This document shows positions 5,933-40,738 of a DNA stretch of 64,000 bases, piece after piece (the stretch's first letter is position 1; every line of letters begins with the position of its first letter). The notes below the pieces were generated by a model, which saw only the letters and a list, made by a program, of their open reading frames with translations, was not told the DNA's origin and ran no database searches. The DNA lies in the NCBI GenBank assembly GCA_016193335.1, contig JACPSK010000001.1:519738-583737 (forward strand), read 5' to 3'. This stretch comes from Candidatus Magasanikiibacteriota bacterium (GTDB taxonomy: Bacteria; Patescibacteriota; Patescibacteriia; Magasanikbacterales; UBA922). The position numbers and the translations under genes were made by a program.

Positions 5933-8900
5933 ATGAGAGATTCGCGTTCAAGTTTTCAACGTCTCACCACTTGGTTCGTTATTTTTACAACCTTGTGGTA
6001 TTTTGTGTTTGGATTATCACCTTTTAACATACAAGACCCCACCGTGCCCGTGGTAAAGGCCGCGGCTGTAAGCTGGGCAGGGGCAAGCACCGGCACCTGG
6101 GAAACGGCGAGCAATTGGAGCGGCGGATCTGTGCCAAGTTCAAGCGATGATGTTACCATATCCCCCACAAGCACCAATATCGCGGTTACTCTTTCTTCAG
6201 GCCAAACCGCTGACTTTAGCACACTCACCATGGGCGGGAACGCCACGTACGGAGTAACAACCACTCTTATTGGAAATATCGGCACAGGCGGAAGCATAAC
6301 CATGCAAGGACGTTCCACCACAACCATCCAAAATGCGACGGCGCAAACTATCAGTGGAACTTTAACCATTCAAGCCGGCGGGGCACTGGTACACGCGGAC
6401 AACAGCACTGCGGCTTCCAATATCATAAGTATAAGTGTTGGCGCTCTTGATCTCCAATCCGGCGGTAGAATAGATTTGGATCGACTCGGCTATGACGGAG
6501 GTACGGGGGGCGCTACCGGTTCCGGACCCGGAGGCGGAGCAAAAGGGTCAGTAGCTTCTGGCGGAGGAGCTCATGGAGGAGACGGCGGCGATGGGTATGA
6601 CGGCTCTGCATTAGAGGGTAGTGGCGGGACAGGCTACGACGACTTCACCGGTCCCACTGATCTGGGATCTGGAGGCGGGGGTCTTAATACCAATGGCCCT
6701 GGTGGAGCCGGCGGCGGGGCCGTAAAAATCACGATCACCGGCGGCGGAACCGCCACAATAAACGGCACTCTAACGACGCAAGGGGGTAACGGAGGAAATT
6801 GGGGTACGTCCCGCACGGGAGGCGGAGCCGGCGGCTCTGTATGGATTAATTTCAGCGCCAACGGCACTTTTGCCGGAAGCGGCGCCATAAACGTGGATGG
6901 AGGGGATGGAGGAACAAACGGCGGTGCCTACGATTACTACGCCGGGGGTGGGGGCGGAGGTCGTATTGCCATTACCGGACACAATTCACACACGTTTTCC
7001 GGAACTCTATCTTATGATGGAGGTACTCTCACAGAATCGGTTTCTAATATAGTTTCTCAAGATGGAGGCGGAGGGACATATTGGCTCAAACAATCCGGCC
7101 AAACTGGTGATTTATATATAGGCGGAAACACAAAGGGGCACGACAATCCTGCGCGCGTAGTGGATACAAAGAGTGTGAATGATATATGGTTCGAAGGAGC
7201 AAGCGGTTTGGCCATAGCAAGCGGAGTCACCATAACATTGGCTTCTTCTACCATATCAGCAGGTACTGCTACATCAAGCATTGATATCGACGGGGTCTTT
7301 AGTCTGCCTACCAGCTTTACCATCCCGAATAAAATTTCCGTTACCACCACGGCCACCGGTCTTGATACGGTAAATTCCCTAACCATAGCAGCCGGAGGAC
7401 GTTTGGCGCTTGAATACATTTCAACCAGTTCTCCGTGGACCCAACTGAGTACCCTTACTCTTAATGGCGATTTGACTCATCTCGCGAACACCAGCACCAT
7501 TCATAATTCTGTAAACATTTCAGCTACCACTATCACCATAGGGACCACGGGAAGAGTAATAGCAGACAGATGGGGCTACCCCGGTGGAGCCCCTAACTCA
7601 AGCGGTTCAGGACCTGGCGCTGGCACATTTTTGGATACGCACGGCGGCGGCGGTGCCTATGGAGGCAATGGTGGAAATGGAGCTTCAGGACAAGGACTGG
7701 GCGGCTCTTTGTATGGAACCACATCCACACCGGAATACGATGCCGGTTCTGGCGGCGGCGGGGCTATCGCTACGGTAAGCGGAGGTCCTGGCGGAGGTAT
7801 CATAAAACTCGTTGCCAGCGGCACTTTTACTTTAAATGGCGCCATTTCCGCAAATGGGTTGGCAGGGCCTAATGGATGCGGCGGAAGCCCGGGAAGAGCC
7901 GGGGGAGGCGGAGCGGGAGGAGGTATCAGAATAGAAGCAGGCACTCTAAGCGGCAGTGGAAGCATTGCGGCAAATGGCGGAGACTCTTGGTGTTCCGCAG
8001 GAGCGGGAGGAGGCGGACGTGTGTTGGTGACCGCCTCAACGTATTCTTTTACCGGCACTGTTACCACCACAGCAGGCCAAGAGCAGCAATTTGGAAATGA
8101 CGGAATTATCGGCACAGCAGTGGTTTCTCCATCTGCCGCCGGCACCCTCTACTCAAACAATACTAGCGCGGCGAGCGGACAAACAAATCCGACTAAATTA
8201 ACAGACATAACTCCCGCCTTTTCTGCTGTTTACAATGACCCTGATTCCGGAGATATTGCGAATAAAGCTCGAATCCAAGTGAGCACCAGCCAAACTATGA
8301 GCTCTCCAATCTGGGACTCAGGATCAGGCGGAACCAGCATCACAAATTGCAGCCAAGGAAATCGCTGTCAAGATTTAGTATTTGGCAGTTTTGGCACTGC
8401 TCCCACCACAAACTTGGCGCTCAATGATGACGCAGACGAAAATTCACAAACCACTTATTATTGGCGGCTAAAATATTTTGATGACGAAGTGGGTGAAGGA
8501 GCCTGGTCTTCCACCTCGACTTTTACTCTCCTCGACGCTCCCAATGAACCGAGCGGGGTCGCCACTTCCACTCTTTCCACTACCGCCTTACTTCTGAGCT
8601 GGACAGACAATTCTTCCATCGAAGATCATTTTGACGTGGACCAATCTACTGATGGAACGAGTTTTACCACTGCCACCACCACCGGAGCAAATACCAGCAC
8701 CTACCATTTTTCCGGCCTCACACCAAACACCCAATATACTTTTAGAGTACGGGCCGGCAACAGCGCCGCGAGCTCTACCTTTGCCACGTCAAGCGCCGGA
8801 TACACGCTTGCCAATGCGCCGATTTCTTTATCCGGTTCAGCGGACAGCATGAGCGCGATCACCACAATTTGGGCCGGGAATGACAATCCAAACGGCACAG

Positions 8901-11776
8901 CTTACAATATTCAAGAAGTAAGTACTGCCGCCAGCTCCGGATGGATCACCAATACTACCCACACCTTTACCGGGCTTTCCGGAGGAACGCAATACCAGTT
9001 TAAAGTGAAAGCGAGAAATACCGATGGCATTGAAACTGCTTACACGAGCCCTGTCTACGTATCCACGCCAGACTCGGGAGGAGGTACTGCAGGAGGAGGC
9101 GCGAGCGGCGCGCCATCGGCTCCCTCTACTCCTCCATTCAGTGGCCCGTCACTTCCTCTTGAGCCGGACACACCTTTGCCCGAACTTCAGCCTGCCAAGG
9201 GACTTATATACATACCGAGCCAAAAAAATGATTGGTTTGACATGCTTGAATTTGGAAAAATTCCAAGCGGCACTGAAACAGGTCTTGCAAAAGCAATAGC
9301 GGGAAGCGGTTCTGAAAAAAAATTCAATTTGAATTCAGTATTCAGCATGGAATTCAAAGTCAGACCAAAAATAGCTCCGCAAGGTTTTAGCGGCGTGCCA
9401 ATCATATTTTCAAAAGAAGGATCATACAGACTCACGTTCAATTCAAGCATAGAATCTCTGAAAAAAGGACTGTGTTTCGAAGTTACGCAAAAAGATGCTA
9501 CGAATGTAAGTGTCTGTGACAAAAAACAGCCTCACATTTGGCCGCCTTATGAATATCGCGTAGTTTGGACCGGTACCGCTCTTGAACTCTACGAAGGAGA
9601 AACTCAGCTTGACGTAAAACCACTTTCTTCCATAAAAGACACAGATAAACCTTTGGTGCTAGGCGGAAGTTTAACTGAATACAAACCGGGAAAATTTCTT
9701 ATCAGCAGTTATGAAAATACATTTTACACTCTCAGAGTAAAGCGCGAACAGCCTGTCTATTATATAAACAAAAAGGATATCTCAGTGGTGATCAATCCGG
9801 TATATGCCAAATACGTGGCTCTTAAGGAGAGCTATGAGACTCCGGTAGACGAATTCAAAGACAAAAGCTATGATATTGCCACTAAATCTGAAAAAAATTT
9901 CGATCTGACCGGAGAAGACGGACTAAAATGCGTAAATGCTCTGTTTGCAAATTCACAAACAGACCCGAACAAACAATTTACTGAATCGAGCTATGCTTGT
10001 GTTTATCTGGATACGAAAGCGCCAAACGTGGATTTTTCTGTTGACACGGGAGTGGTGAACGGCGTAGCCATATCACAGCCGAGCCTGAGCGGAGTCTCAG
10101 AGCCAAACGCAACCATCAACATAAGCAGAAAAAAGAAATCGCTTTCAGGAGCTTTGTATCGAAAAAGTATTTTTTATACTCCCATTTTGATGCTGGCGGC
10201 CGATACAGAACAAAACTACAGCACCACAGCCGATGAAAATGGAAATTGGTCTTATACGTTTACCGATGTTTCGGAAATCGGTGAATATGAAATAACGGTT
10301 CAAGCGGAAGATCCGGCAGGAAACAGTTCTGAGCCAGTCAAAAAAAATCTTGTTTTGACGCAAGAACCCCCGGCTCCTGCAGAACCACAGCCAGAAGAGC
10401 CGAAACCTGTCGAACCTGAACCCGAGGAACCCAAGCCCATTGAACCTGCACCAACAGAACCGAAACCGGAAGAACCGAAACCAAAGCCGGCTGACGCAAA
10501 TCCGGATACGCCCGTGAATCCGGAAACTCCAAAATCAACGGCTGACACAAAAACTCCAACAAACGGAAATACTCCGACCGAACAAAACTCCGCAAACAAC
10601 GGGACCTCCACGCAGGCTCTCCCGAATAAAACAACAGCTGAAGAAAAAAATAAAGACAGAACGCCACAGATTGAAATAAAAGGCAGTGTTGAAAAAGCTA
10701 TAGATCTCCTTGGCAGGGGTCTTGAATCTATCAAAACAATTATTGACAACCCTCGGGTAGAACAGGTAAACGAACGCGTAGCCGCCCCAGGCCTTATAGC
10801 CATTGGGTTCGCCAATGCGGCAACCGGAGCCCAACTGCCCAATTTGTTGGCTTTCCTTCGCTATATTTTCGGCCAGCCGATCATGCTCCTGCGAAGACGA
10901 AAACAAAAAAAATGGGGTGTGGTATACAATGCTTTTACCAAACGGCCCGTTGATCTCGCCACCATACGTATCATTGAGGACAAAACCGACAAAGTCGTCC
11001 GAACTCAAGTCACTGACACACACGGCAGATACTTCGTGTCCGTGGACCCCGGCGCCTACCGCATTGAAATTATCAAACCGGGTTTCCTGGGCTTCAGTGA
11101 ATATCTTAAAGAAAAAGATGAAGATTCTTCGTATGTAAATCTGTATCATGGGAGTGTATTTTATCCTTCCGAAGAGCAGGCTTATTTGACCTACAATATA
11201 CCCGTGGATCCTGACGTTCCCGACAAAACCACAGACTCCGTGCTGAAAGATCGTCTAAAATTGGTACTGCACCATGCTTTCAGTGTAGTGGGTCTTATCG
11301 CGAGCGCTGTTTCCTTTGTTGTTTCACCCACGCCACTCATCGGCACACTTTTGGCCCTCCATTTGTTCTTTTATGTGCTCATGTACAAAATCGCTCATCG
11401 CGCCTTGCCGGCGTCTTGGGGTGTTATTTCTGAACAAGGAACGCGCAAAGAACTCGGACACGTGGTAGTGCGCGTCTTTGATTCTGAATATGACAAGTTG
11501 GTGAATACCGAAGTCTCGGACCGCAAAGGACGTTACGCAGTGCTGGTCGGCCCGAGCAGATATTATCTTACTTACGACAAAAAAGAATACAAACTCAAAA
11601 AGAGCCCGACACTGGACTACAGCAGTGAAAAAACGCATGGCCTTGGAGGTCTTATTGACCGCAGTGAAGAATTGGAACGCTTAAAAATACCGAACCGGAA
11701 TACAAAACCTGATTCTGTTTCAGATACAAAAAACTCTGATGCAGCAGGTAAAAATAACATCACTTCAAAAAAATAA
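5933..11776 (+). CDS. Giant (1947 aa) cell-surface protein: signal/TM anchor, Gly-rich beta-helix-like repeat region, fibronectin-III-like domains, Pro/Glu/Lys-rich linker, C-terminal TM segments with CarboxypepD_reg-like domains
   Basis: N-terminal hydrophobic segment. About 700 aa of GGxGG/GxGGxG repeats. FN3-like blocks (WTDNSSIEDHFDVDQSTDGTSF...YTFRVRAGN; YNIQEVSTAASSGW...YQFKVKARN). A PEPQPEEPKPVEPEPEEPKP linker. Two CarboxypepD_reg-like blocks (VTDTHGRYFVSVDPGAYRIEI; SDRKGRYAVLVGPSRYY) flanked by TM helices. Confidence 0.8.
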   Translation: MRDSRSSFQRLTTWFVIFTTLWYFVFGLSPFNIQDPTVPVVKAAAVSWAGASTGTWETASNWSGGSVPSSSDDVTISPTSTNIAVTLSSGQTADFSTLTMGGNATYGVTTTLIGNIGTGGSITMQGRSTTTIQNATAQTISGTLTIQAGGALVHADNSTAASNIISISVGALDLQSGGRIDLDRLGYDGGTGGATGSGPGGGAKGSVASGGGAHGGDGGDGYDGSALEGSGGTGYDDFTGPTDLGSGGGGLNTNGPGGAGGGAVKITITGGGTATINGTLTTQGGNGGNWGTSRTGGGAGGSVWINFSANGTFAGSGAINVDGGDGGTNGGAYDYYAGGGGGGRIAITGHNSHTFSGTLSYDGGTLTESVSNIVSQDGGGGTYWLKQSGQTGDLYIGGNTKGHDNPARVVDTKSVNDIWFEGASGLAIASGVTITLASSTISAGTATSSIDIDGVFSLPTSFTIPNKISVTTTATGLDTVNSLTIAAGGRLALEYISTSSPWTQLSTLTLNGDLTHLANTSTIHNSVNISATTITIGTTGRVIADRWGYPGGAPNSSGSGPGAGTFLDTHGGGGAYGGNGGNGASGQGLGGSLYGTTSTPEYDAGSGGGGAIATVSGGPGGGIIKLVASGTFTLNGAISANGLAGPNGCGGSPGRAGGGGAGGGIRIEAGTLSGSGSIAANGGDSWCSAGAGGGGRVLVTASTYSFTGTVTTTAGQEQQFGNDGIIGTAVVSPSAAGTLYSNNTSAASGQTNPTKLTDITPAFSAVYNDPDSGDIANKARIQVSTSQTMSSPIWDSGSGGTSITNCSQGNRCQDLVFGSFGTAPTTNLALNDDADENSQTTYYWRLKYFDDEVGEGAWSSTSTFTLLDAPNEPSGVATSTLSTTALLLSWTDNSSIEDHFDVDQSTDGTSFTTATTTGANTSTYHFSGLTPNTQYTFRVRAGNSAASSTFATSSAGYTLANAPISLSGSADSMSAITTIWAGNDNPNGTAYNIQEVSTAASSGWITNTTHTFTGLSGGTQYQFKVKARNTDGIETAYTSPVYVSTPDSGGGTAGGGASGAPSAPSTPPFSGPSLPLEPDTPLPELQPAKGLIYIPSQKNDWFDMLEFGKIPSGTETGLAKAIAGSGSEKKFNLNSVFSMEFKVRPKIAPQGFSGVPIIFSKEGSYRLTFNSSIESLKKGLCFEVTQKDATNVSVCDKKQPHIWPPYEYRVVWTGTALELYEGETQLDVKPLSSIKDTDKPLVLGGSLTEYKPGKFLISSYENTFYTLRVKREQPVYYINKKDISVVINPVYAKYVALKESYETPVDEFKDKSYDIATKSEKNFDLTGEDGLKCVNALFANSQTDPNKQFTESSYACVYLDTKAPNVDFSVDTGVVNGVAISQPSLSGVSEPNATINISRKKKSLSGALYRKSIFYTPILMLAADTEQNYSTTADENGNWSYTFTDVSEIGEYEITVQAEDPAGNSSEPVKKNLVLTQEPPAPAEPQPEEPKPVEPEPEEPKPIEPAPTEPKPEEPKPKPADANPDTPVNPETPKSTADTKTPTNGNTPTEQNSANNGTSTQALPNKTTAEEKNKDRTPQIEIKGSVEKAIDLLGRGLESIKTIIDNPRVEQVNERVAAPGLIAIGFANAATGAQLPNLLAFLRYIFGQPIMLLRRRKQKKWGVVYNAFTKRPVDLATIRIIEDKTDKVVRTQVTDTHGRYFVSVDPGAYRIEIIKPGFLGFSEYLKEKDEDSSYVNLYHGSVFYPSEEQAYLTYNIPVDPDVPDKTTDSVLKDRLKLVLHHAFSVVGLIASAVSFVVSPTPLIGTLLALHLFFYVLMYKIAHRALPASWGVISEQGTRKELGHVVVRVFDSEYDKLVNTEVSDRKGRYAVLVGPSRYYLTYDKKEYKLKKSPTLDYSSEKTHGLGGLIDRSEELERLKIPNRNTKPDSVSDTKNSDAAGKNNITSKK

Positions 11777-15046: not shown

Positions 15047-15054
15047 CCTCTAAC

Positions 15055-15170
15055 ATACAACCACCCCTTACATCCCCTCCTTGAAAAGGAGGGGATCGCG
15101 GCTGCGAAGTCTCTTTCCTCTTGGGTTCCACCGACAAGGTCCCTGAGACCCCTTGAAAAAGGGCGTTGCG
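15055..15170. repeat. Copy R1 of the composite palindromic intergenic repeat family
   Basis: CCCCTTACATCCCCTCCTT-gaaa-AGGAGGGGATCGCGGCTGCGAAGTCTC. The same modules recur at five other loci in this window. Confidence 0.6.
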
Positions 15171-16014: not shown

Positions 16015-16200
16015 ACTTCCGCCTTGCGGAGGAGGGAGACGCCGCAGCCGCGACCCCCTCCTTTCCGAAGGAGGGGGTTAGGGGGTGGTTATGAGACTGT
16101 TCGGATACGCTCCAGAACCCCCTCTTACATCTCCCCCTTAGTAAAGGGGGAGAGACACCAGTGGGGGGGTGTTTGTGAGAGAATAAGACACCAAGCTTGT
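16015..16200. repeat. Copy R2 of the composite palindromic repeat family (inverted orientation of the GCGGCTGCG module, plus GGGGTGGTTATGAGACTGTTCGGATAC module and TCTCCCCCTT-agtaa-AGGGGGAGA hairpin)
   Basis: Shares three sequence modules with R1, R3, R4 and R5. ORF 15944..16279(-) is a spurious translation of this repeat. Confidence 0.6.
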
Positions 16201-16541
16201 CTTCCAGGCTTATTTCATGATATATAAACAAGGTCCTTCTGCAAACCAAGGGAGACAGAAATGCTCGCGACTTTCGCACACTTCATCTATGATGAACGCC
16301 TCATCCCCTTCAACAGGCAAAACGCGGCCAACTACACGACCATTATGGGCGCCTGGCTGGCCAGAATTTCGTTTTACCTGTTTGGGATCATACTTGTCGC
16401 GTTCGCGATGCGCAGTGAATTGACGCCCTGGATGCTCGGCCTGCGTTACGCAGCCATAGGTTTTGGCATCTTGGCCGGAATCTGCGACGCTTTGGACGGC
16501 TTCATCGCCCGAAAGCTCGGCTGTGTGACCGAACTTGGCAG

Positions 16542-17694
16542 GATACCGTTACCTTTTGGGTGCGTGAAAAGTTGTTTTCTTTGCTAGACTATGCTAAGAA
16601 ATGAGTGTTTAACTAGTTAATTAGCCTACTGTGGTAAAAAAAACACAATCCATCCTGTCAGAAATGTGGGAGCAGGGAAACCAACAAACGAGGAAGCCGA
16701 CGTGAATTAAAAAGATATTGTTGCAAGAGCTGTCGAGGCTCTTTTTCAGTTGATCATGGCAGGAAGAAACCGGTGTTGTGGATTCCCCACATCGATGGTA
16801 TTTCCTTTCGCAAGCTCGGCGATGCACAAGGATTGTCCGGCAAACAGGCATATGTGCGCGTGTTTGATGAACTGAAGACCTTGCCGGAGAATCTGGAAAT
16901 CACCCGACAGTATGGTGCATACACGTCGGGTATTTTAATTATGGATGGAAAATATATTAAAGTCCGCGGATACAAACACAAGATTCCGTTCATCTATGCC
17001 ATTGACTACGAAACGCATGACATCTTGTTTGGGATACTGTCCCATGCTGAAGATGAAAAAACATTTCTTGCATTTTTTCACACACTCAAAACATTGAATT
17101 ATCCACTTCAAGCCGTCGTGGCCGACGACCGAACGTCGCTCCCCTTAGCCTTAAAACAGGTGTACCCGGGTATTCGGGTACAGCTTTGTCTTAACCATTA
17201 TCTGGAGAATATCCGACAACAACTCCACATTCGTACCGATGGAACCCATCGTCATTTTTTTAACGCGCTCAAGAAGCATGTATTTGACCATTACGAAAAT
17301 GACGAACAACTTACGACAGCCCTCCGCCAGGTGTGGACCAACCGATGTGAACAGGTGCCACTCCGCCAAACGATCCTTCTCCAGATTCACCAACGGAGAA
17401 CAGAATTATTTGCATACCACACCATAGTGAACTGTCCGAACAACACCAATCTGATTGAACTGTTTAATTCCCACTTTAATGCTCGACTGAAATCACTGAA
17501 AGGTTTCAAAACCAAAGCCCATGCCATGCTGTGGCTGAATGGCCTCATCATCCGCCGGCGGACAAAACCATTCACTGACTGCGGATCGAAGTTCAAACAT
17601 CTGAACGGCAAATGCTCCCTTGAGATGAGTATCAAAAAACAGGCCGAGTGGCCTGAAATATATGGGGTAAAAGCACCCAAAAGGTAACGGTAAC
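16542..17694 (+). mobile_element. Complete ~1153-bp insertion sequence with ~21-bp terminal inverted repeats and a 9-bp target-site duplication
   Basis: Left end GATACCGTTACCTTTTGGGTGC. The reverse complement of the right end is GTTACCGTTACCTTTTGGGTGC. Direct repeat ACTTGGCAG at 16533-16541 and again at 17695-17703. The element carries a single transposase gene. Confidence 0.75.
16638..17687 (+). CDS. DDE transposase with N-terminal Zn-ribbon (IS1595/IS256/IS1-type; family unresolved)
   Basis: In-frame N-terminal CQKCGS-x17-CCKSCRGSFS zinc ribbon. DDE-type core motifs MDGKYIKVRG, VVADDRTSLPLALKQVYPGIRVQLCLNHYLENI and NLIELFNSHFNARLKSLKGF. No in-frame ATG before 16770; the first GTG/TTG is at 16770/16773. 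Confidence 0.6.
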   Translation, partial: KKHNPSCQKCGSRETNKRGSRRELKRYCCKSCRGSFSVDHGRKKPVLWIPHIDGISFRKLGDAQGLSGKQAYVRVFDELKTLPENLEITRQYGAYTSGILIMDGKYIKVRGYKHKIPFIYAIDYETHDILFGILSHAEDEKTFLAFFHTLKTLNYPLQAVVADDRTSLPLALKQVYPGIRVQLCLNHYLENIRQQLHIRTDGTHRHFFNALKKHVFDHYENDEQLTTALRQVWTNRCEQVPLRQTILLQIHQRRTELFAYHTIVNCPNNTNLIELFNSHFNARLKSLKGFKTKAHAMLWLNGLIIRRRTKPFTDCGSKFKHLNGKCSLEMSIKKQAEWPEIYGVKAPKR

Positions 17695-18349
17695 ACTTGG
17701 CAGCATACTCGATCCGCATCATGACAAAACCCAGTACCTGGCAAAAACCGGCTGCCTGATCGCGGATGCCGCCATCGCGGTGGCTGTATTGGGCAGCTAT
17801 TGGTACCTGGTGGGGGCCGTCATCTTGAAATACGCGGTAAATGAGCGCGATGAGACCGTTATGTTTCACCGCCTCTGGGCCAAAAGCCTGGTCCCAAACG
17901 CGAACTTGGCCGCGGGGTCTTCGGGCAAGATCAGAACCGTGCTCTGCTTTGTGGGCATGCCACTCATGCACTTGTGCGTCCTCCCCTTCGATCTGCTCTC
18001 GGTGTATCTCGGGATCTCGTGTCTGCTCACAAGCATGACCCTCCTCTCACTGAGGATCTACGTGCGGAATTACCGCAATCTGATCCTGAAAGAACGAGGA
18101 CAGCTGAATTGAAGAAGGAATTGGAAAACTCTCGCCTCGCTTGCTTTGCAATTTATCCAGACCGGAAAAATTCATGTAAAAACTTACATTAAAGTACGAT
18201 ACAAAATATCCCGGCCGGCCAGAAAATTAACATTTCCATTCATGAATGCAAAGCAGGAGATCTGGCGAGAGCAAAAAAATCCCGATATGCTCGGGATTTT
18301 TAATTTACAATTCTTGTTTAATTGGAGTTTGTATCAACCAAATCAAATG

Positions 18350-20394: not shown

Positions 20395-20600
20395 GCACCC
20401 CTTACATCCCCTCCTTGAAAAGGAGGGGAGAATGACAGCGGAGTCTCTCCCCCTTTACTAAAAGGAGAACTCCCCGCACCGGTCTCTCCCCCTTTACTAA
20501 GGGGGAGATGTAAGAGGGGGTTTGGACATATCAGAGAATACAGTGCAAAGGGGTCTCCTCTCCTTGTGGAGGAGGAGATCTAAGGGGTGGCGCGTGAGGA
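20395..20600. repeat. Copy R3 of the composite palindromic repeat family
   Basis: CCCCTTACATCCCCTCCTT-gaaa-AGGAGGGG followed by two TCTCCCCCTTTACTAAGGGGGAGA hairpins and GATGTAAGAGGGGG. Confidence 0.6.
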
Positions 20601-20629: not shown

Positions 20630-21205
20630 CTACTGATTATACAACTTAAACTGATCCGGAATGGCATCCCCTTCCAAAGGATCACCATAGCCTTTGAGCG
20701 GATCCTGCCCCTTGTAATACCCGGAATTAAGCACTCCCCATTGAAAATAAGATACGTCATCGTCCTCATTGGCAAATAAGACAAGATCCACTACAAAATA
20801 AGCAACGCTGTAAGACATAAGCATTACGGCCACTCCCAATACCCCATGGCTTATGATGCTGTTTGCTTTGTTTATTCTGTCTTCATTGCCCGCGGAGGTC
20901 ATATATAAATATCCTCCGTATACGGTGTAGATGATAAATAAAGTGCCAATAAAGGTTAAAAACATCTGCACTAAGCGGGCGGCAATAATAGGAGCAAGGC
21001 TTGGTTTTCCATATTGCGCCCCCTGTGTGCCGGCAAAGGCTCCTGTTTGTTTTCCTATTTCCTCTTGGAGAGGAGAAACAGCCGGCGGGTCTTCCGCGCC
21101 TGCAATGCCTGGAACAAAAAGTAGAGAATAGACAAAAAAACCCAGTATCGTAAGAATTAATTTATGTTTTAACGTTTGTGAAAAAACTTTTCGCATATTT
21201 ATCAT
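20630..21205 (-). CDS. TrbC/VirB2-like pilin paralog 1 (signal peptide, two TM helices, C-terminal extension)
   Basis: Core FIGTLFIIYTVYGGYLYMTSAGNEDRINKANSIISHGVLGVAVMLMSYSVAYFV matches the family consensus (TM1-YxGxxWMxxxG[NE]E[ED]-TM2). Confidence 0.6.
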   Translation of the reverse strand: MINMRKVFSQTLKHKLILTILGFFVYSLLFVPGIAGAEDPPAVSPLQEEIGKQTGAFAGTQGAQYGKPSLAPIIAARLVQMFLTFIGTLFIIYTVYGGYLYMTSAGNEDRINKANSIISHGVLGVAVMLMSYSVAYFVVDLVLFANEDDDVSYFQWGVLNSGYYKGQDPLKGYGDPLEGDAIPDQFKLYNQ

Positions 21206-21651
21206 TCTTGTTTCAAAGGCGCTTCAGTGGTATCTCCAAAGCCGGTCGCTTCTTTGACTTTTGAGGCCACAAGGTAAGCTATGCTATAAGCCGAAAGTAT
21301 AATGATAAGACCTATTACCGCGGCCTGTATGGTGCCGTAAGCTTTCTGAATTTTGTCTTCTTCTCCATGCGAAGTAACCAGGTTATAGCCGGCATTTACC
21401 ATTAAAACAATAAATATTATGCCATAGGCCTTTAGCATTACTTTTATTATATTTGCTATTACCACGCGCACATCCGGAGCTTCTTCATTTTGAGGTTTCA
21501 AACCGGCTTTCTCGGCTCCTGCGTTTAGCTGTTTGAGCGCCTGGCTCTTGAGTTCAGTCTCGGCGCTCGCGGTGCTGAATGGCGCGAAGTTTAAACCGAG
21601 CGCCATGATAACTACTGTGGTGAGGAAAAAAATATGTATTGATTTTTTCAT
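21202..21651 (-). CDS. TrbC/VirB2-like pilin paralog 2
   Basis: Signal peptide plus core VMLKAYGIIFIVLMVNAGYNLVTSHGEEDKIQKAYGTIQAAVIGLIIILSAYSIAYLV. Confidence 0.6.
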   Translation of the reverse strand: MKKSIHIFFLTTVVIMALGLNFAPFSTASAETELKSQALKQLNAGAEKAGLKPQNEEAPDVRVVIANIIKVMLKAYGIIFIVLMVNAGYNLVTSHGEEDKIQKAYGTIQAAVIGLIIILSAYSIAYLVASKVKEATGFGDTTEAPLKQE

Positions 21652-21702
21652 AAAAAAATACCCGGCCTTAACTTTATCGATTGGTTTTTCCTAATTTTGC
21701 TT

Positions 21703-22092
21703 TTAACCCCCGCTTGTCGCTCTTTCCAAAATGGCGTTTACCGCGAAATTTGAGAGCGTATACGCGCCCAAAGTCACGATAAGACCCATGATAGATCCTG
21801 TTATAATTTTTTTCGCTTTGTCTATTTGATCTTGTTCACCCCGAGCCGCCATCCACATATCTCCCGCATAAGCCAATAAAAACGTAAACATTATTCCCAC
21901 CAAAGAAAGAACGGCTTTTATCACTGTGCCCACCATTTCCGCAAAAGTGGTATCCGTGGTTTCTCCATAGCCTGCTTTCTTTCCGGCGTCTTTTACGATA
22001 TTGTTGCCAAGGTCTATGGCGGAAACCGAAGATACCAACACAGAAGACATTAAAAGAGGTGAAATAACGAGAAAAAATAAAATGCGTTTCAT
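21703..22092 (-). CDS. TrbC/VirB2-like pilin paralog 3
   Basis: Core LSLVGIMFTFLLAYAGDMWMAARGEQDQIDKAKKIITGSIMGLIVTLGAYTLSNF. Confidence 0.65.
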   Translation of the reverse strand: MKRILFFLVISPLLMSSVLVSSVSAIDLGNNIVKDAGKKAGYGETTDTTFAEMVGTVIKAVLSLVGIMFTFLLAYAGDMWMAARGEQDQIDKAKKIITGSIMGLIVTLGAYTLSNFAVNAILERATSGG

Positions 22093-22109
22093 ACGAAAAT
22101 AATTATTTT

Positions 22110-22490
22110 CTATCCTTGAAACTTACCGGTTACAAACACTGTTATCGCGTAAGCGGAAACCGTAATAAAAAGTCCGATTAATGAAGCTGTAATAATTTTC
22201 TGCGCTTTGCTTATTTGGTCTTCCTCGCCTCTTGCCGTCATCCATAGTATGCCGGCGTAGACCATAAGTATGAGAAAAATGAGTCCTACTAAACTCAGAA
22301 GGGCGTTTACTATAGTACCTACCACTATTCCCAGATTTTCTTCCTTTGTTCCTGCTTTGCCGGCCACCGTGTCCAAATTAGTTCCCGAAGCTCCGATTCC
22401 TATTTGGGCCGAGGCTGTTCCCGCTGACAGCAAGGCAAAGGCGGACATGACGAGCAGTAACATCGATAGAATGAATTTATTTTTTAGCAT
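22110..22490 (-). CDS. TrbC/VirB2-like pilin paralog 4
   Basis: Signal peptide plus core LSLVGLIFLILMVYAGILWMTARGEEDQISKAQKIITASLIGLFITVSAYAITVFV. Confidence 0.65.
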   Translation of the reverse strand: MLKNKFILSMLLLVMSAFALLSAGTASAQIGIGASGTNLDTVAGKAGTKEENLGIVVGTIVNALLSLVGLIFLILMVYAGILWMTARGEEDQISKAQKIITASLIGLFITVSAYAITVFVTGKFQG

Positions 22491-22584
22491 ATAGAGAAAA
22501 ATTCTTATGTTCTTTTTTCTTGGATTGGTTTTGTAGATTCATTAAATCCCTTCTTGCCTTTTCTTTTTCCTCTCAAAGGACATA

Positions 22585-22780
22585 CCCCCTATTCTCCACT
22601 CACAACCACCCCTTACACCCCCTCCTTAGTAAAGGAGGGGATCGCGGCTGCGGTGTCTCTCCCCCTTTACTAAGGGGGAGATGTAAGAGGGGGTTGTGGA
22701 ATGTATCCAAACAGTCTCATAACCACCCCTTACATCCCCTCCTTGGTAAAGGAGGGGATCGTGGATGCAATGTCCTTCTC
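22585..22780. repeat. Copy R4 of the composite palindromic repeat family (two tandem units, one carrying the inverted GGGGTGGTTATGAGACTG module)
   Basis: CCCCTTACACCCCCTCCTT-agtaa-AGGAGGGGATCGCGGCTGCGGTGTCTCTCCCCCTTTACTAAGGGGGAGATGTAAGAGGGGG...CAGTCTCATAACCACCCCTTACATCCCCTCCTTggtaaAGGAGGGGATCG. ORF 22520..23005(+) is a spurious translation. Confidence 0.6.
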
Positions 22781-22813
22781 CGAGATGAGAAGAAACGCCA
22801 TGAAGAGAAAACA

Positions 22814-23470
22814 CTACAAACTATCCCACTTTTCTTGACACTGTACACTGTTCAGCCCCTGGTAAAATTGCCAGCATCCGTCCGTTGGCCCCGGGCAAGC
22901 AAGTTCATCTCCATTGCCTTTCTTTTCTCCATGCAATTTACAATCTTCGAGCGTGGTTACGCGCCAGGCGATTTTGGAGGGAGACCATACGGAATAATCC
23001 CCTGAGCCTCCGGCGCTGTACCAGTCGAAACAACATCCGAGCGGCTGATCCCCGATTTGATCCGGCGTTAAAAAGGCCTTTCCTCCGCCCTCATTCGGGT
23101 TTCCTTGTATAACACGATTCGTTACAAAGCTTGTTACCGCATAAGCCGCCACCACTATTACCAGGCCTATGGTGGCGCGGATGATGGAATCTCTCGCGGT
23201 CTTTACGTTTTCTTCTTCTCCTCTTGCAGTCATCCAACGAATTCCGGCGTATACCATGATGATGAAAAAAATGATTCCCACCGCGATGGTCGCTGTTTTT
23301 ATGATATTACCCGTAACATTGGTTATTTGGCCTTCTGTGATGCCGGTTTTGCCAACTACGGTCGTAAGAGCGCCTTCAGCGTCTCCGATGGTTTTTTTGG
23401 CGTGGACTGAGTCTGAAACTTGCAACAAACAAAATGCCGAAAATAAAAGTACCCACAAAATTCTTATCAT
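22814..23470 (-). CDS. TrbC/VirB2-like pilin paralog 5 with Cys-rich C-terminal extension
   Basis: Core IAVGIIFFIIMVYAGIRWMTARGEEENVKTARDSIIRATIGLVIVVAAYAVTSFV, then a CCFDWY...CPGPTDGCWQF...CQEKWDSL tail. The likely start is MIRILWVLL. Confidence 0.65.
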   Translation of the reverse strand: MIRILWVLLFSAFCLLQVSDSVHAKKTIGDAEGALTTVVGKTGITEGQITNVTGNIIKTATIAVGIIFFIIMVYAGIRWMTARGEEENVKTARDSIIRATIGLVIVVAAYAVTSFVTNRVIQGNPNEGGGKAFLTPDQIGDQPLGCCFDWYSAGGSGDYSVWSPSKIAWRVTTLEDCKLHGEKKGNGDELACPGPTDGCWQFYQGLNSVQCQEKWDSL

Positions 23471-23474
23471 AAAA

Positions 23475-24347
23475 TCACTGCCAAAGACAAATATCTGCCT
23501 GTTGTTTGCATTCACTTTCAAGTTTTAAGTTAGGACATATTGATTTTGCTTCAACAGCTTTTTCTGAAACGCAATTCCCTCCGTCCCATTTGCAGTTCAA
23601 ATCTTTCACTTCCGCTGGCGCATATGGCAAAGATCCCATGTTATTGCAAGTTGGCTCGTCTTGTTTTGTAGCAGCTTTGTCTTCTTCTGTCATGTCCTTA
23701 GCAATATTTTTTTTCAATTCTTGCAAGAAATTATTACATACCCCATTTTCCTCGAAAAATGCTTTTGCCTTACAACTTCCACTCTGGCCTACACTTGCAT
23801 TACACTCAGACTCAGAAGCGAACGATACTGTACCGTTTGGACAACCGTCAGCACCGGGTTCTTTCTCTTTAACCTTAGAAAAGGTAATGCACTGTTCAGT
23901 TGCTTTATCAAAACAATAATCCGTATCTTTTGGCTTTCCACCTGACCCTGCTCCTCCCCCCCCTCCGGTATTTATCACCTGCCCGCCGCTCACGCTCTTG
24001 AGGACAAAATTGGTAATGGCGTAAGAAGCCAAGACAATAATGATGCCGATAACCGCGGCCACAATGGTATCCAAAGCCTTTTTGGCTTCTTCTTCTTTTC
24101 CTCGGGCTATCATCCAACGTATACCACCATAAATCATCAATCCAAAAAACAATACCGATATCATCGAGAGTCCGGTACCTACGATATTCCCGACAATGGT
24201 GGGCAAATCCGTGCCATATTGTTTGAGCCCGGCCGCTCCGGCCGTCTCTTCGAGTCCATATTGGCCGTACACCACCCCGGTGGAAAAAAATCCTGAAACC
24301 AAAACAACGCAGGCAGCGATACTTATGAGTAGAGTTTTTTGTTTCAT
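23475..24347 (-). CDS. TrbC/VirB2-like pilin paralog 6 with Gly-rich spacer and Cys-rich C-terminal domain
   Basis: Core LSMISVLFFGLMIYGGIRWMIARGKEEEAKKALDTIVAAVIGIIIVLASYAITNFV, then a GGGGGAGSGG spacer and >=12 Cys. The likely start is MKQKTLLIS. Confidence 0.65.
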   Translation of the reverse strand: MKQKTLLISIAACVVLVSGFFSTGVVYGQYGLEETAGAAGLKQYGTDLPTIVGNIVGTGLSMISVLFFGLMIYGGIRWMIARGKEEEAKKALDTIVAAVIGIIIVLASYAITNFVLKSVSGGQVINTGGGGGAGSGGKPKDTDYCFDKATEQCITFSKVKEKEPGADGCPNGTVSFASESECNASVGQSGSCKAKAFFEENGVCNNFLQELKKNIAKDMTEEDKAATKQDEPTCNNMGSLPYAPAEVKDLNCKWDGGNCVSEKAVEAKSICPNLKLESECKQQADICLWQ

Positions 24348-24454
24348 AGAAAAATGCGGAGAATTAGGAAACTTATGTGCGTCTTTTTTGAAAAAAGAGA
24401 AACGGACTATCTGTGGCAAAGATTTCTGGAGATAGTTTTATAGAGCATTCTCCG

Positions 24455-24700
24455 CGCCACCCCTTCACATCTTATCCTCCACAAGGAAGGGAGCACTGCA
24501 GCCGCGATCCCCTCCTTTTCAAGGAGGGGATGTAAGGGGTGGTTATGAGACTATTCGGACAAACTCCTCAACCCCCTCTTACATCTCCCCCTCTTACATC
24601 TCCCCCAAGGGGGAAAGACACCGCTATTATTCCTCCTCCTTGAATAAGGAGGGAATCATGAATGCGTTTGTCCCCTCCCGAAGAACGGGGTATTGGGGGT
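24455..24700. repeat. Copy R5 of the composite palindromic repeat family
   Basis: Contains CGCGATCCCCTCCTT-ttc-AAGGAGGGGATGTAAGGGGTGGTTATGAGACTATTCGGACA, TCTCCCCC repeats, and the related hairpin TTCCTCCTCCTTgaataAGGAGGGAAT. Confidence 0.6.
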
Positions 24701-24723
24701 AATAGTTACCCAAACTTATATAA

Positions 24724-25128
24724 TTAAGGAATTATCAGCACTTCCTGCGTAGTAGCCTCGTACAAATTCTTGAGGACAAAGGTACTTATCGCGTAAGCGC
24801 CCAAAATGATAATAAGGCCCGCGACCGAAGCAAACAAAATCTGCTGAGCTTTTTTTACATTATCTTCGTTTCCGCCCGCGGTCATCCATCTGAATCCCGC
24901 GTAAATGATAAGAACCGTGGCAAGTATGCCCAAAAGTCCCAAAGCCACGTTTATTATCCTTCCCGCCAATATGCGAGGATCTTCTTTCCCAAGTCCGGTA
25001 TATTCTCCGCAATCCAACCCGAGCGCGTCTTTTCCGCATTCATATTGGGCGGAAGCTTGGAGCGGAAGAACCCACACACTCACAAAAAAACTAACCGCGA
25101 AACTAAAGATAAGGGCAGATAATTTCAT
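24724..25128 (-). CDS. TrbC/VirB2-like pilin paralog 7 (short N-terminal Cys pair)
   Basis: Signal peptide, QYECGKDALGLDCGEY, then core LGLLGILATVLIIYAGFRWMTAGGNEDNVKKAQQILFASVAGLIIILGAYAISTFV. Confidence 0.65.
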   Translation of the reverse strand: MKLSALIFSFAVSFFVSVWVLPLQASAQYECGKDALGLDCGEYTGLGKEDPRILAGRIINVALGLLGILATVLIIYAGFRWMTAGGNEDNVKKAQQILFASVAGLIIILGAYAISTFVLKNLYEATTQEVLIIP

Positions 25129-25244
25129 ATTTTTATTTAATTAGCAACTAGCAACTCACAATCTGGTAATTTATTGTCAGTCGTCAATCGTTAATTGCGA
25201 AAAAGCACTCCGGGCAGAGTCTCCCCTGCCCGGTGCGCTTGTCA

Positions 25245-25775
25245 TTAGTCGATTTGTAACTCTGTGGGAATACCGGTGTTCGTGCCGGTTGTGGCAGACG
25301 CCAATTTGTTTAATACAAACAAAGCGATCGCCCAAGCCGACAAAATAATCGCCAAGCCGATAATTCCTGAGAAAATGAGCTTGCGAGCCTCAGCTACTTT
25401 GTCTTCATTGCCGCCTGCGGTCATCCATTTGAATCCGCCCACCAAGATGATAACTACAGCCACAATGCCGAGAAGACTCAAGGCTACGTTTATCAGTTTG
25501 GCTATGGTTGTGCGCAAATCTTGATTGCCCAAAGTGGTTTTCAGTTCGGTGTTCACTTTGCCGAGTCCGTATATGTCCGATCCTGTCGGAGCCGCGGCGC
25601 ATTTGCCTGTGGAAGCGCAAACAAGACCTGTTTTACAATCTGATGTCGCTGTACAATTAGCGCCTATATCTCCAGTACCGGCGAAAGCGGCCGGAGCCAA
25701 CATCAAAGCGAAAAACGCGGTCGCGATAATGGCCAAAGCCAATCTGTATCGTTCCAATTTTGCTGCTAAATACAT
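25245..25775 (-). CDS. TrbC/VirB2-like pilin paralog 8 (N-terminal Cys-rich knot)
   Basis: ANCTATSDCKTGLVCASTGKCAAAP, then core LSLLGIVAVVIILVGGFKWMTAGGNEDKVAEARKLIFSGIIGLAIILSAWAIALFV. Confidence 0.65.
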   Translation of the reverse strand: MYLAAKLERYRLALAIIATAFFALMLAPAAFAGTGDIGANCTATSDCKTGLVCASTGKCAAAPTGSDIYGLGKVNTELKTTLGNQDLRTTIAKLINVALSLLGIVAVVIILVGGFKWMTAGGNEDKVAEARKLIFSGIIGLAIILSAWAIALFVLNKLASATTGTNTGIPTELQID

Positions 25776-25842
25776 GTTATCACCTCCCTTCGGATTAGTG
25801 TGTGTATTACTAATTCAAGGTTAGTAATCATAGTAATTTTGG

Positions 25843-26625
25843 CTAGGGACAAGTCGCAGGGCAGGCTCCTTTTTGGACATCTGCACATTCCGGCCCTATC
25901 AATTTTTCAAATAAATCTTCCCCCGATTTCACCTCTATGGTTTCGCAGGTTTTGCCTGATCCGCAAATGAGGCCACAGAACTGCCCCAACAGTGGGTGCT
26001 TTTCCTGACAATCTGGAGCGCATTTGCCTTTCTCAGCAGATCCACATTCCAATGATTTTATCTTTTGATTTAACTCCTGTTCAGTTTCTACCTTTATGCT
26101 CAGACACGAATTTAAGCCCTGATTTTTTAGACAAGTCTGCAAGCAATAGTCTCCTGTCCCTGTAAAGACACTTGAATTTGATGGTGTTGCACTCCCACCA
26201 CCACTCACCGCACCAAGTCCCACAAGAACTAGATTGAGTATAGCATAGCCGCTGAAAATGATAAATACCCCGATGGCAGACCAGACCATAGTTTCAGTTC
26301 CTTTTTTCACTCGCTCCGCGTTGCCGGCAGACGTAAGCCAAAGAAATCCGCCAACGATAAACATAAGAAGAGCGGCCGAACCCATTATCGTGAGCCCCTG
26401 TTTTAGAATCTTGCCCAAAATTATGGGAACTCTCACTTCTCCCACCGGTTTTTCTGTTGTCCCTCCGAGAGGATTCACCAATCTGGTTACGGTTACATTT
26501 CCCGGCGGCACGGCGCTCACCGCGCCAAAAAAAAGAAAACAAAAACTTAAAGAGGCCAGTGATAAAAGGATATATTTTTTTATTTTTATGTTCAACATAT
26601 TGTTTTTAACATCATAACGCGGCAC
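25843..26625 (-). CDS. TrbC/VirB2-like pilin paralog 9 with Cys-rich C-terminal domain
   Basis: Core LTIMGSAALLMFIVGGFLWLTSAGNAERVKKGTETMVWSAIGVFIIFSGYAILNLV, then a >=14-Cys C-terminal region. Confidence 0.6.
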   Translation of the reverse strand: MPRYDVKNNMLNIKIKKYILLSLASLSFCFLFFGAVSAVPPGNVTVTRLVNPLGGTTEKPVGEVRVPIILGKILKQGLTIMGSAALLMFIVGGFLWLTSAGNAERVKKGTETMVWSAIGVFIIFSGYAILNLVLVGLGAVSGGGSATPSNSSVFTGTGDYCLQTCLKNQGLNSCLSIKVETEQELNQKIKSLECGSAEKGKCAPDCQEKHPLLGQFCGLICGSGKTCETIEVKSGEDLFEKLIGPECADVQKGACPATCP

Positions 26626-26646
26626 AATCGGAAATTTCCTTCTTTC

Positions 26647-27429: not shown

Positions 27430-27443
27430 ATCAAATCTTGACC

Positions 27444-40730: not shown

Positions 40731-40738
40731 ACCGCCTC

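What the first reader, a model, noticed from the sequence alone, without database searches (positions are those of the whole stretch)
16533..17703. Intact IS element (TIRs plus 9-bp TSD) inserted precisely into the catalytic motif of a CDP-alcohol phosphatidyltransferase gene
The 9-mer ACTTGGCAG occurs at 16533-16541 and again at 17695-17703. Between the two copies lies a 1153-bp element whose ends are 21/22 inverted repeats (GATACCGTTACCTTTTGGGTGC vs GTTACCGTTACCTTTTGGGTGC). It encodes a Zn-ribbon plus DDE transposase. Removing the element and one repeat copy joins ...DGFIARKLGCVTELG to SILDPHHDKTQYL..., which regenerates the D-G-x2-A-R-x8-G-x3-D-x3-D signature exactly. This is therefore a recent insertional inactivation of a phospholipid-synthesis gene (PgsA-like). 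That is notable in a reduced-genome organism believed to depend on host lipids.
Basis: seen in the sequence. Interest (0 to 1): 0.6.

Follow-up and report, generated by a model that had tools for sequence, protein, structure and literature searches.

The report
Fresh IS insertion splitting a lipid-enzyme gene
A 1.15-kb jumping gene has recently landed inside the catalytic motif of a rare lipid head-group transferase gene in an uncultured groundwater CPR bacterium, which is an ordinary kind of event; the more unusual point is that this element's transposase has no in-frame start codon and seems to depend on slippage at a run of eight A's.

Summary
ACTTGGCAG occurs only at 16533-16541 and 17695-17703, flanking a 1153-bp element (16542-17694) with 21/22 terminal inverted repeats. 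Removing the element and one repeat gives a 229-aa ORF that matches PF01066 (60 bits) and restores the full CDP-alcohol transferase motif. A 79%-identical orthologue from another groundwater metagenome has the uninterrupted site.

The insertion looks recent. Both gene halves are undamaged, and dN/dS against the orthologue is 0.05. It is present in every assembly that reaches the site.

The host is a Candidatus Magasanikbacteria (CPR) MAG.

"PgsA" is not established. The protein scores 57 bits against the pgsA model (cut-off 109). It belongs to a tiny clade: three full-length relatives among 1.8 billion cluster representatives. A second CDP-alcohol transferase elsewhere in the genome could not be checked.

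The element is an IS256/Mutator-type IS with an N-terminal zinc ribbon, from a large, mostly unnamed group (at least 999 protein clusters). Twelve relatives also have exact 9-bp duplications.

The zinc-ribbon ORF has no in-frame start. GTG/ATG plus an A8 run one frame off is conserved in 55 of 67 lineages. This implies programmed slippage, probably transcriptional.

Overall: an ordinary insertional inactivation by a new IS, with an interesting recoding feature.

The parts
16261..16541 (+). 5' part of the interrupted CDP-alcohol phosphatidyltransferase family gene (codons 1-93 plus 2 nt). As it stands, the ORF reads on into the IS to 16587, giving a 108-aa product that lacks the last two catalytic Asp residues.
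   Evidence: ORF list; reconstruction; PF01066; annotated MBI2990007.1 as a CDP-alcohol phosphatidyltransferase family protein
16533..16541 (.). Left copy of the 9-bp target-site duplication, ACTTGGCAG
16542..17694 (+). Insertion sequence, 1153 bp, IS256/Mutator type with an N-terminal zinc ribbon. GC is 44.8%, against 55.7% for the target gene.
16542..16563 (+). Left terminal inverted repeat, GATACCGTTACCTTTTGGGTGC. The outer GATACCGTT is nearly invariant in relatives.
16592..16601 (+). Extended -10-like box, TGCTAAGAAA (family consensus TGCTAAAAT). Putative transposase promoter; this is an inference.
   Evidence: conserved block in the alignment of 54 left ends; not picked up by the simple promoter scan
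16609..16620 (.). Perfect palindrome TTAACTAGTTAA between the putative promoter and the start codon, highly conserved in the family. Possibly an operator; function unknown.
16631..16633 (+). GTG start codon (ATG in most relatives). It lies in the frame one base behind the transposase frame. In its own frame it opens only a 24-codon ORF.
16636..16643 (+). A8 run, the proposed slippage site. Loss of one A in the mRNA, or a +1 ribosomal shift, joins GTG-GTA-AAA-AAA to CAC-AAT-CCA-TCC-TGT (M-V-K-K-H-N-P-S-C...).
   Evidence: literature PMC6211511 and PMC5009743
16638..17687 (+). Transposase reading frame: 349 codons plus stop, with no internal stops. NCBI annotates only the 304-aa part that starts at GTG 16773.
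16656..16733 (+). Zinc ribbon C-x2-C-x18-C-x2-C (C7, C10, C29, C32). It is under purifying selection even though it lies upstream of any in-frame start.
16944..17459 (+). DDE catalytic core: D103, D163/D164, E274, with C184-x2-H187
   Evidence: invariant columns; PF00872/PF10551; coordinates
17673..17694 (-). Right terminal inverted repeat. Read inward it is GTTACCGTTACCTTTTGGGTGC.
17695..17703 (.). Right copy of the 9-bp target-site duplication, ACTTGGCAG
17704..18112 (+). 3' part of the interrupted gene (last nt of codon 94 through to the stop). NCBI annotates a 110-aa hypothetical protein from GTG 17780.
   Evidence: colinear with orthologue L019

Best explanation
An IS256/Mutator-superfamily insertion sequence (1153 bp, single zinc-ribbon plus DDE transposase, 22-bp TIRs) transposed into a stand-alone gene for a divergent CDP-alcohol phosphatidyltransferase family enzyme. 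The host is the chromosome of a Candidatus Magasanikbacteria (CPR) bacterium from groundwater. Staggered cleavage of the target and gap repair duplicated the 9 bp ACTTGGCAG. The insertion falls after the second base of codon 94, between the G and the final D-x3-D of the catalytic motif. The remaining 108-aa N-terminal product therefore lacks two of the metal-binding aspartates, and the gene is inactivated (inferred). The event is evolutionarily recent. In every assembly of this population recovered here that reaches the site, the IS is in place. The target is a rare, probably accessory paralogue whose substrate is unknown. It is closest to PgsA but well below equivalog level. The IS itself looks functional. 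Its transposase can only be made after a one-base frame correction on an A8 run that begins three bases after the start codon. The most likely mechanism is RNA polymerase slippage producing A7 transcripts, which would keep transposase output low. Shown: the anatomy, the TSD, the family assignments, the empty site in a relative, purifying selection before the insertion, and conservation of the out-of-frame start plus A-run. Inferred: loss of enzyme activity, the copy-out/paste-in mechanism, and the nature of the slippage.
For: TSD and TIRs are exact and far beyond chance. The reconstructed 229-aa ORF scores 60.2 bits on PF01066 (E 4e-16) and has the complete motif at residues 79-101. It aligns end to end with three full-length homologues, with no indel at the junction. 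Orthologue L019 (79% nt identity) carries the uninterrupted site LDGFIARKLGCVTELGKILDPHHD, and the sequences are colinear. dN/dS is 0.05 at dS 1.24. The transposase scores 41.4 bits on PF00872, above the cut-off of 21. The Cys4, D103, D163/164, E274 and C-x2-H residues are invariant in relatives. Twelve related elements have perfect 9-bp TSDs and none has an 8-bp TSD. The A/T asymmetry at TIR position 2 is family-wide. The same junctions are seen at 100% identity in independent assemblies of several runs. The host identity comes from NCBI names and CPR-typical gene content. For recoding: no in-frame start exists. 55 of 67 lineages need the same -1-nt correction on an A7/A8 run, and 5 lineages encode M-T-K-K-H-N-P-H-C directly with one A fewer. 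The zinc-ribbon codons have dN/dS of 0.1-0.3. Gene callers truncate the protein in most of the 999 or more family clusters. A-runs of 7 or more suffice for slippage in IS1447 (PMC6211511). No IS using +1 ribosomal frameshifting is known, whereas +1 via transcriptional realignment is (PMC5009743).
Against: No contig or protein with the intact allele of this same population was found, so 'recent' rests on the lack of decay and not on an observed polymorphism. The enzyme's substrate and essentiality are unknown. The rest of the 686-kb contig and the rest of the MAG could not be searched for a second CDP-alcohol transferase. Many relatives lack TSDs. Swapped flanks between copies (L039/L040, L074/L076) point to recombination or chimeric assembly as the reason. 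NCBIfam IS256 models are matched only below their cut-offs (59 and 53 bits against 150). There are no RNA or protein data for the slippage. A8 is shorter than the classical A9. No stimulatory hairpin was identified.
Confidence: 0.88

Rival explanations
1. The interrupted gene is the organism's housekeeping PgsA. Its loss would then mark, or be tolerated because of, complete dependence on host-derived phospholipids.
For: The best NCBIfam and PDB matches are PgsA (TIGR00560 56.9 bits; S. aureus PgsA 7DRJ E 6e-7). [quoted passage not shown] No other CDP-alcohol transferase signature occurs in the window.
Against: The score is about half the pgsA equivalog cut-off of 109.1. The clade has only three full-length relatives in the two protein searches, which is not the distribution of a housekeeping gene. 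GC is 55.7% in a 44% genome. Neighbourhoods are not conserved. Only 64 kb of a contig of at least 687 kb could be inspected.
Confidence: 0.12
2. The insertion is a reversible switch. As with IS256 in icaC of Staphylococcus epidermidis, rare precise excision between the 9-bp repeats would restore the gene, giving phase-variable envelope lipid chemistry.
For: The element is of IS256 type and has perfect direct repeats and undamaged gene halves. Precise, transposase-independent excision of IS256 is documented (PMC11178275).
Against: No empty-site allele of this population appears in any assembly or protein set examined. Such excision is very rare even in staphylococci.
Confidence: 0.06
3. The element is a dead relic. 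On this view the missing in-frame start reflects a frameshift mutation in the A-run, and the interruption is an old, fixed pseudogene.
For: By ORF criteria, the transposase frame opens directly after a stop codon and has no start before codon 46.
Against: The same out-of-frame start plus A-run is present in 55 of 67 diverged lineages, and 17 near-identical pairs never differ in run length. The zinc ribbon is under purifying selection. There are no internal stops and all catalytic residues are kept. The TSD is perfect, the host gene halves are undecayed, and a relative has the empty site.
Confidence: 0.03
4. The frame correction at the A-run is made by the ribosome (+1 slippage of tRNA-Lys on AAA-AAA-A), or by heritable DNA-level length changes (a contingency locus), and not by RNA polymerase.
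For: tRNA-Lys can re-pair perfectly after a +1 slip on the run (sequence). In-frame clades with A6/A7 exist. Four lineages need the opposite shift, which could be a classical -1 frameshift on A-AAA-AAA.
Against: A 2016 review states that no IS using +1 ribosomal frameshifting has been identified (PMC5009743). There is no slow or stop codon after the shift site. Run length is identical within all 17 near-identical pairs and is clade-specific, which argues against frequent DNA-level switching. Use of both shift directions fits polymerase slippage, which gives both +1 and -1 products (PMC6211511).
Confidence: 0.25

Closest known systems
IS256 (Staphylococcus/Enterococcus) and the IS256 family, Mutator superfamily (Pfam PF00872)
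   Same: It has a single DDE transposase with the C-x2-H signature after the second Asp, short TIRs starting with GAT, and 8-9-bp TSDs. It inactivates genes by insertion. The PF00872 match is above the gathering score.
   Different: It is shorter (1153 bp) and has an N-terminal Cys4 zinc ribbon. It scores only 59 bits on the NCBIfam IS256 equivalog model (cut-off 150). There is no tblastn match in 72,556 plasmids. The start codon is out of frame and followed by an A8 run.
NCBIfam NF048019 'IS256 family transposase, variant Zn-binding type' and NF033544 IS1249
   Same: The architecture is the same: an N-terminal four-Cys domain fused to an IS256-type DDE domain. Both models hit from residues 5-9 onward.
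   Different: Scores are 53.4 and 30.6 bits, against cut-offs of 150 and 300. This is therefore a separate, uncurated subgroup found mainly in groundwater and sediment metagenomes and in CPR MAGs.
IS1447/IS120 group (IS3 family) and Roseiflexus IS630: transposase expression by transcriptional slippage
   Same: Making the transposase requires a homopolymer or slippery run plus a '+1' frame correction. A-runs of 7-9 are conserved in IS1447 relatives, and A7 or longer is sufficient (PMC6211511; PMC5009743).
   Different: In those elements slippage fuses OrfA to OrfB in mid-gene, and OrfA is itself a functional product. Here the site begins three bases after the start codon (codons 2-5), the unshifted product is a non-conserved peptide of 12-24 residues, and the IS family is different. 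No upstream RNA hairpin was identified.
IS256 insertion and excision in icaC of Staphylococcus epidermidis
   Same: An IS256-type element interrupts an envelope-related gene and leaves direct repeats that could mediate precise excision (PMC11178275).
   Different: There is no evidence of an excised allele here. The TSD is 9 bp, not 8 bp.
PgsA, CDP-diacylglycerol--glycerol-3-phosphate 3-phosphatidyltransferase (TIGR00560; S. aureus structure 7DRJ)
   Same: It belongs to the same Pfam family, has the same D-G-x2-A-R-x8-G-x3-D-x3-D motif, and is of similar length. PgsA is the best-scoring characterised relative.
   Different: It scores 56.9 bits against a cut-off of 109.1. It has a distinctive conserved N-terminal extension (YD..L.P..R.N.ANY) and DPHHDK in place of the DPLADK seen in S. 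aureus PgsA. The clade is very small. The substrate is unknown.

Membership tests
IS256 family / Mutator superfamily IS | Transposase matches Pfam PF00872 (Transposase_mut) above the gathering score | tested here: met
   41.4 bits against a cut-off of 21, E 1.1e-10, residues 98-297
IS256 family / Mutator superfamily IS | NCBIfam equivalog models reach their cut-off (NF033543 IS256; NF048019 Zn-binding variant) | tested here: not met
   59.3 and 53.4 bits against 150
IS256 family / Mutator superfamily IS | DDE triad with a C-x2-H motif after the second Asp | tested here: met
   D103, D163/D164, E274, C184 and H187 are invariant in 6 sequences of 49-75% identity. This rests on alignment and not on a structure.
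IS256 family / Mutator superfamily IS | 8-9-bp target-site duplication and terminal inverted repeats of about 20-40 bp | tested here: met
   9-bp TSD here and in 12 relatives. TIR is 21/22 here and 19-26 of 30 positions in relatives.
IS256 family / Mutator superfamily IS | Copy-out/paste-in transposition through a circular intermediate | not testable with these tools
   Requires experiments, or reads that span circle junctions
CDP-alcohol phosphatidyltransferase family (PF01066) | HMM match above the gathering score on the reconstructed ORF | tested here: met
   60.2 bits against 22, E 4.1e-16
CDP-alcohol phosphatidyltransferase family (PF01066) | Signature D-G-x2-A-R-x8-G-x3-D-x3-D | tested here: met
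   Residues 79-101, DGFIARKLGCVTELGSILDPHHD, complete only after in-silico excision
PgsA (phosphatidylglycerophosphate synthase, TIGR00560 / NF008090 equivalogs) | Score at or above the equivalog cut-off | tested here: not met
   56.9 against 109.1, and 29.3 against 304
PgsA (phosphatidylglycerophosphate synthase, TIGR00560 / NF008090 equivalogs) | Uses CDP-diacylglycerol plus glycerol-3-phosphate | not testable with these tools
   Needs an enzyme assay or complementation. The nearest solved structure, 7DRJ, matches only at E 5.9e-7.
IS elements expressed by programmed transcriptional realignment | Homopolymeric A/T run of at least 7 at the point where the frame must change | tested here: met
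   A8 at 16636-16643. A7 or A8 is present in 71 of 83 relatives.
IS elements expressed by programmed transcriptional realignment | The frame offset and the run are conserved among diverged relatives, and the downstream frame is under coding constraint | tested here: met
   55 of 67 lineages need -1 nt and 4 need +1 nt. The zinc-ribbon region has dN/dS 0.1-0.3.
IS elements expressed by programmed transcriptional realignment | Transcripts heterogeneous in run length, with a full-length trans-frame protein produced | not testable with these tools
   No transcriptome or proteome data are accessible

The most novel reading that the evidence does not exclude
The IS belongs to a large, uncharacterised IS256-like group with a zinc ribbon, frequent in CPR and groundwater genomes. 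In this group the transposase has no in-frame initiation codon at all. The only start codon lies one frame off, and translation of any functional protein depends on slippage on an A8 run that begins three bases after that start codon. The slippage is probably by RNA polymerase. This would be a start-proximal, all-or-none recoding throttle on transposition, not previously described for IS256-type elements. A secondary reading is that the group prefers GC-rich 9-mers as targets, which would explain why a 56%-GC gene was hit in a 44%-GC genome.
Probability: 0.55. Interest if true: 0.5.

Novelty: new member of a known kind. Interest (0 to 1): 0.35.

Why it matters
It adds one data point showing that transposition is active in a CPR bacterium with a very small genome, and that a rare lipid head-group transferase is dispensable in the sampled population. 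It says little about host-lipid dependence, because the gene is not demonstrably pgsA and the rest of the genome was not inspected.

The more useful result concerns the element. It represents a very abundant IS group, mostly unnamed in the databases searched, that gene callers systematically truncate. The group carries a conserved out-of-frame start followed by an A8 run. This offers a clean natural system, with in-frame, -1 and +1 variants, for studying slippage-dependent control of transposase expression. It is also a practical warning for annotating CPR genomes.

Tried and rejected
1. I looked for the intact allele in the same population. The exact 229-aa sequence is absent from the 15-billion-protein collection. 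Nothing closer than 50% and full length turned up in either protein search.

2. I tried to find the source genome and other IS copies in the GTDB representative genomes. The source MAG is not among the hits; only relatives of 37-75% identity were returned. A second CDP-alcohol transferase could therefore be sought only in the window, by motif scan, and none was found.

3. I tested for a conserved gene neighbourhood of the target clade as a guide to function. The flanking proteins of the three homologues share no similarity with the window's neighbours or with each other.

4. I considered whether the -10 box TAAGAA (missing the final T) marks a crippled copy. I rejected this because L035 and L039 share it.

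5. I considered whether the lack of TSDs in L022 and L024 argues against a 9-bp TSD. I rejected this after finding 12 perfect 9-bp TSDs and swapped flanks among the 80 metagenome loci.

6. I considered an RNA hairpin formed by the palindrome as a slippage stimulator. I judged it implausible: the stem would be all A-U, the loop too small, and it ends 16 nt upstream of the run. I did not fold it.

7. A tblastn search against plasmids for a named relative found no match.

8. Literature searches for IS256 plus slippage, or CPR plus this gene family, found nothing specific. PMC3199440 is not held in the library.

9. The simple promoter and terminator scan was uninformative.
Full report
**Observation.**
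The 9-mer ACTTGGCAG lies at 16533-16541 and 17695-17703 and nowhere else in the window on either strand. The 1153 bp between the copies (16542-17694) begin with GATACCGTTACCTTTTGGGTGC. They end with the reverse complement of GTTACCGTTACCTTTTGGGTGC, identical at 21 of 22 positions. A 20-nt core of this repeat matches only these two sites with up to three mismatches, and none of 100 shuffles gave any match. The junctions are real. Logan assemblies of several independent sequencing runs (SRR12113420, -424, -383, -428, -385) reproduce one or both junctions at 100% identity, as does the NCBI MAG.

**The target gene.**
Joining 16261-16541 to 17704-18112 gives an in-frame ORF of 229 aa. The complete motif D-G-x2-A-R-x8-G-x3-D-x3-D lies at residues 79-101, and the IS sits after the second base of codon 94.
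- The reconstructed protein matches PF01066 at 60.2 bits, against a cut-off of 22.
- It reaches only 56.9 bits on the pgsA equivalog TIGR00560, whose cut-off is 109.1.
- The nearest solved structure, S. aureus PgsA 7DRJ, matches at E 6e-7.
- An exhaustive HMMER scan of 1.84 billion cluster representatives found only two full-length relatives, at 49% and 40% identity. It also found the two fragments from this locus and its orthologue. Everything else had E of 1e-8 or worse. The word-indexed search added one 50% relative.
- The three relatives have unrelated neighbourhoods.
- The gene is 55.7% GC in a 44% GC window.

I therefore call it a divergent CDP-alcohol phosphotransferase with a PgsA-like fold and unknown acceptor, probably accessory. 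I do not call it pgsA.

**Age of the insertion.**
A Hainich groundwater contig (L019) carries an orthologue of 79% nt identity whose sequence runs straight through the site (…VTELGKILDPHHD…). It is colinear with the reconstruction and continues into the downstream intergenic region. Over 139 codons, dN/dS between the two is 0.05 at dS 1.24. The gene was therefore under strong constraint for essentially all of the divergence. Both halves are free of stops and frameshifts, and the TSD is perfect. The one TIR mismatch (A versus T at position 2) is shared by 53 of 54 distinct related elements, so it is not decay. No intact allele of this population exists in the protein collections searched. Every contig that reaches the site contains the IS. 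The insertion is therefore recent, and no empty-site allele of this population was seen in the samples examined.

**The element.**
The transposase frame (16638-17687, 349 codons) matches PF00872 Transposase_mut at 41.4 bits, against a cut-off of 21. It matches the NCBIfam IS256 and 'IS256 Zn-binding variant' models only below their cut-offs (59 and 53 bits against 150). C7, C10, C29, C32, D103, D163/164, E274 and C184-x2-H187 are invariant in relatives of 49-75% identity.

The family is large. At least 999 90%-identity clusters have E of 1e-10 or better. 142 loci were found in JGI metagenomes, of which 80 were fetched, and 6 loci were found in GTDB genomes. Most family members sit on contigs of about 1.15 kb, which are IS-only contigs typical of multi-copy repeats. 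Named hosts include Magasanikbacteria, Kerfeldbacteria, Saccharibacteria and Doudnabacteria. There is no match in 72,556 plasmids.

Among relatives with both flanks available, 12 have perfect 9-bp TSDs and none has an 8-bp TSD. Many others lack a TSD. Swapped flanks between copies (L039/L040, L074/L076) indicate recombination or chimeric assembly. The 12 TSDs are 66% GC, against 45% for the flanks, which hints at a GC-rich target preference.

In some samples the contigs break exactly 30 nt inside the IS ends, or consist of the IS alone. This is the expected k-mer signature of the element also occurring in other contexts in those samples.

**'Intact' and the A8 run.**
The zinc-ribbon frame opens directly after a TAA (16635-16637) and has no ATG, GTG or TTG before codon 46. 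NCBI consequently annotates only 304 aa. A GTG at 16631 lies one frame behind and is followed by GT and then A8 (16636-16643). In its own frame it encodes only 24 codons. Deleting one A gives M-V-K-K-H-N-P-S-C-Q-K-C.

This is not a lesion.
- Among 83 related elements (67 lineages at 95% nt identity), 55 lineages have ATG (rarely GTG or TTG) plus an A7/A8 run with the same offset.
- 4 lineages need the opposite correction, and 5 lineages have one A fewer and read M-T-K-K-H-N-P-H-C directly. 3 lineages lack the run.
- All 17 near-identical pairs have the same run length, which argues against DNA-level phase variation.
- The 39 zinc-ribbon codons have dN/dS of 0.1-0.3, so they are translated.
- Gene callers either truncate the protein or extend it spuriously into the TIR.

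By analogy, the most likely mechanism is RNA polymerase slippage producing a minority of in-frame transcripts, which would throttle transposase synthesis. In IS1447 an A9 run is used, A7 or longer suffices, and both +1 and -1 transcripts are produced (PMC6211511). The 2016 review PMC5009743 states that no IS using +1 ribosomal frameshifting has been identified, while +1 shifts by transcriptional realignment are known. A ribosomal +1 slip remains possible.

The left end also carries a conserved extended -10-like box and a perfect palindrome, TTAACTAGTTAA (16609-16620).

**Consequence and mechanism.**
The gene is a stand-alone unit. Upstream lie REP-like repeats and a divergent GT2 gene, and downstream lies a convergent membrane-protein gene, so polar effects are unlikely. 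The truncated 108-aa product lacks the last two aspartates of the motif, so loss of function is the reasonable inference. The window contains no other CDP-alcohol transferase signature. The remaining ~620 kb of the contig could not be examined. [quoted passage not shown] Reversible inactivation by precise excision, as known for IS256 (PMC11178275), is possible but unsupported.

**Verdict.**
The event is an ordinary insertional inactivation by a new member of an IS256-like, zinc-ribbon IS group. The noteworthy extra is the conserved start-proximal A-run recoding of that group.

Noticed in passing
window 16631-16643; loci L020-L105: The transposase has no in-frame start codon. GTG/ATG plus an A8 (or A7) run one frame off is conserved in 55 of 67 related lineages. 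5 lineages are in frame with one A fewer, and 4 need the opposite shift. This points to programmed slippage starting three bases after the start codon.
   Followed up: yes
window 16592-16620: The IS 5' region carries a conserved extended -10-like box (TGCTAAGAAA; consensus TGCTAAAAT) and a perfect 12-bp palindrome, TTAACTAGTTAA. Both are conserved across about 50 diverged elements. The palindrome may be an operator.
   Followed up: partly
window 15047-15106, 16036-16160, 20396-20522, 22599-22761, 24498-24606, 52688-52711: A family of GC-rich hairpin-containing intergenic repeats (REP/MITE-like, e.g. CCCCCTTAGTAAAGGGGG). One inverted pair (15059-15120 / 16029-16090, 77% complementary) brackets the GT2 gene. 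Logan contigs break at 15088 and 16130, within or next to these repeats.
   Followed up: partly
window 21202-30004 (- strand): A run of ten paralogous genes with the T4SS_pilin domain (PF18895), interrupted by a solute-binding protein gene. Type IV pilus genes (PilB, PilC, PilM) lie at 37847-41845. This content is typical of CPR genomes.
   Followed up: no
L019:1-457: The orthologue with the empty site carries an in-frame TAG (LKY*VNERDE) where the window has GCG. The contig has 1x coverage, so this may be a sequencing error or an independent pseudogenisation.
   Followed up: no
window 16261-18112, 3001-5000, 6001-9000: GC-rich islands (52-57%) stand out in a 44% GC window. The interrupted gene is 55.7% GC, and its L019 orthologue is also 55% GC against 44% flanks. 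The more distant homologues are 42-46% GC.
   Followed up: partly
loci L039/L040 and L074/L075/L076: Near-identical IS copies have exchanged flanks: the left flank of one equals the right flank of another. This indicates IS-mediated rearrangement or chimeric metagenome assembly, and it explains many missing TSDs.
   Followed up: partly
12 TSDs in window and loci L027, L031, L037, L046, L048, L056, L070, L075, L094, L099, L101: The 9-bp target duplications average 66% GC, while the flanking DNA averages 45%. This suggests a preference for GC-rich targets.
   Followed up: partly
window 3246-4691: Two fully overlapping 472-aa ORFs lie on opposite strands. The + strand ORF is an MFS transporter. 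The antisense ORF has no Pfam hit and is probably a shadow ORF of the GC-rich gene.
   Followed up: no
window 5933-11776: A 1947-aa protein with fn3, Big_13 and Ig-like domains lies next to a RimK-type ATP-grasp gene. It is probably a giant surface protein.
   Followed up: no
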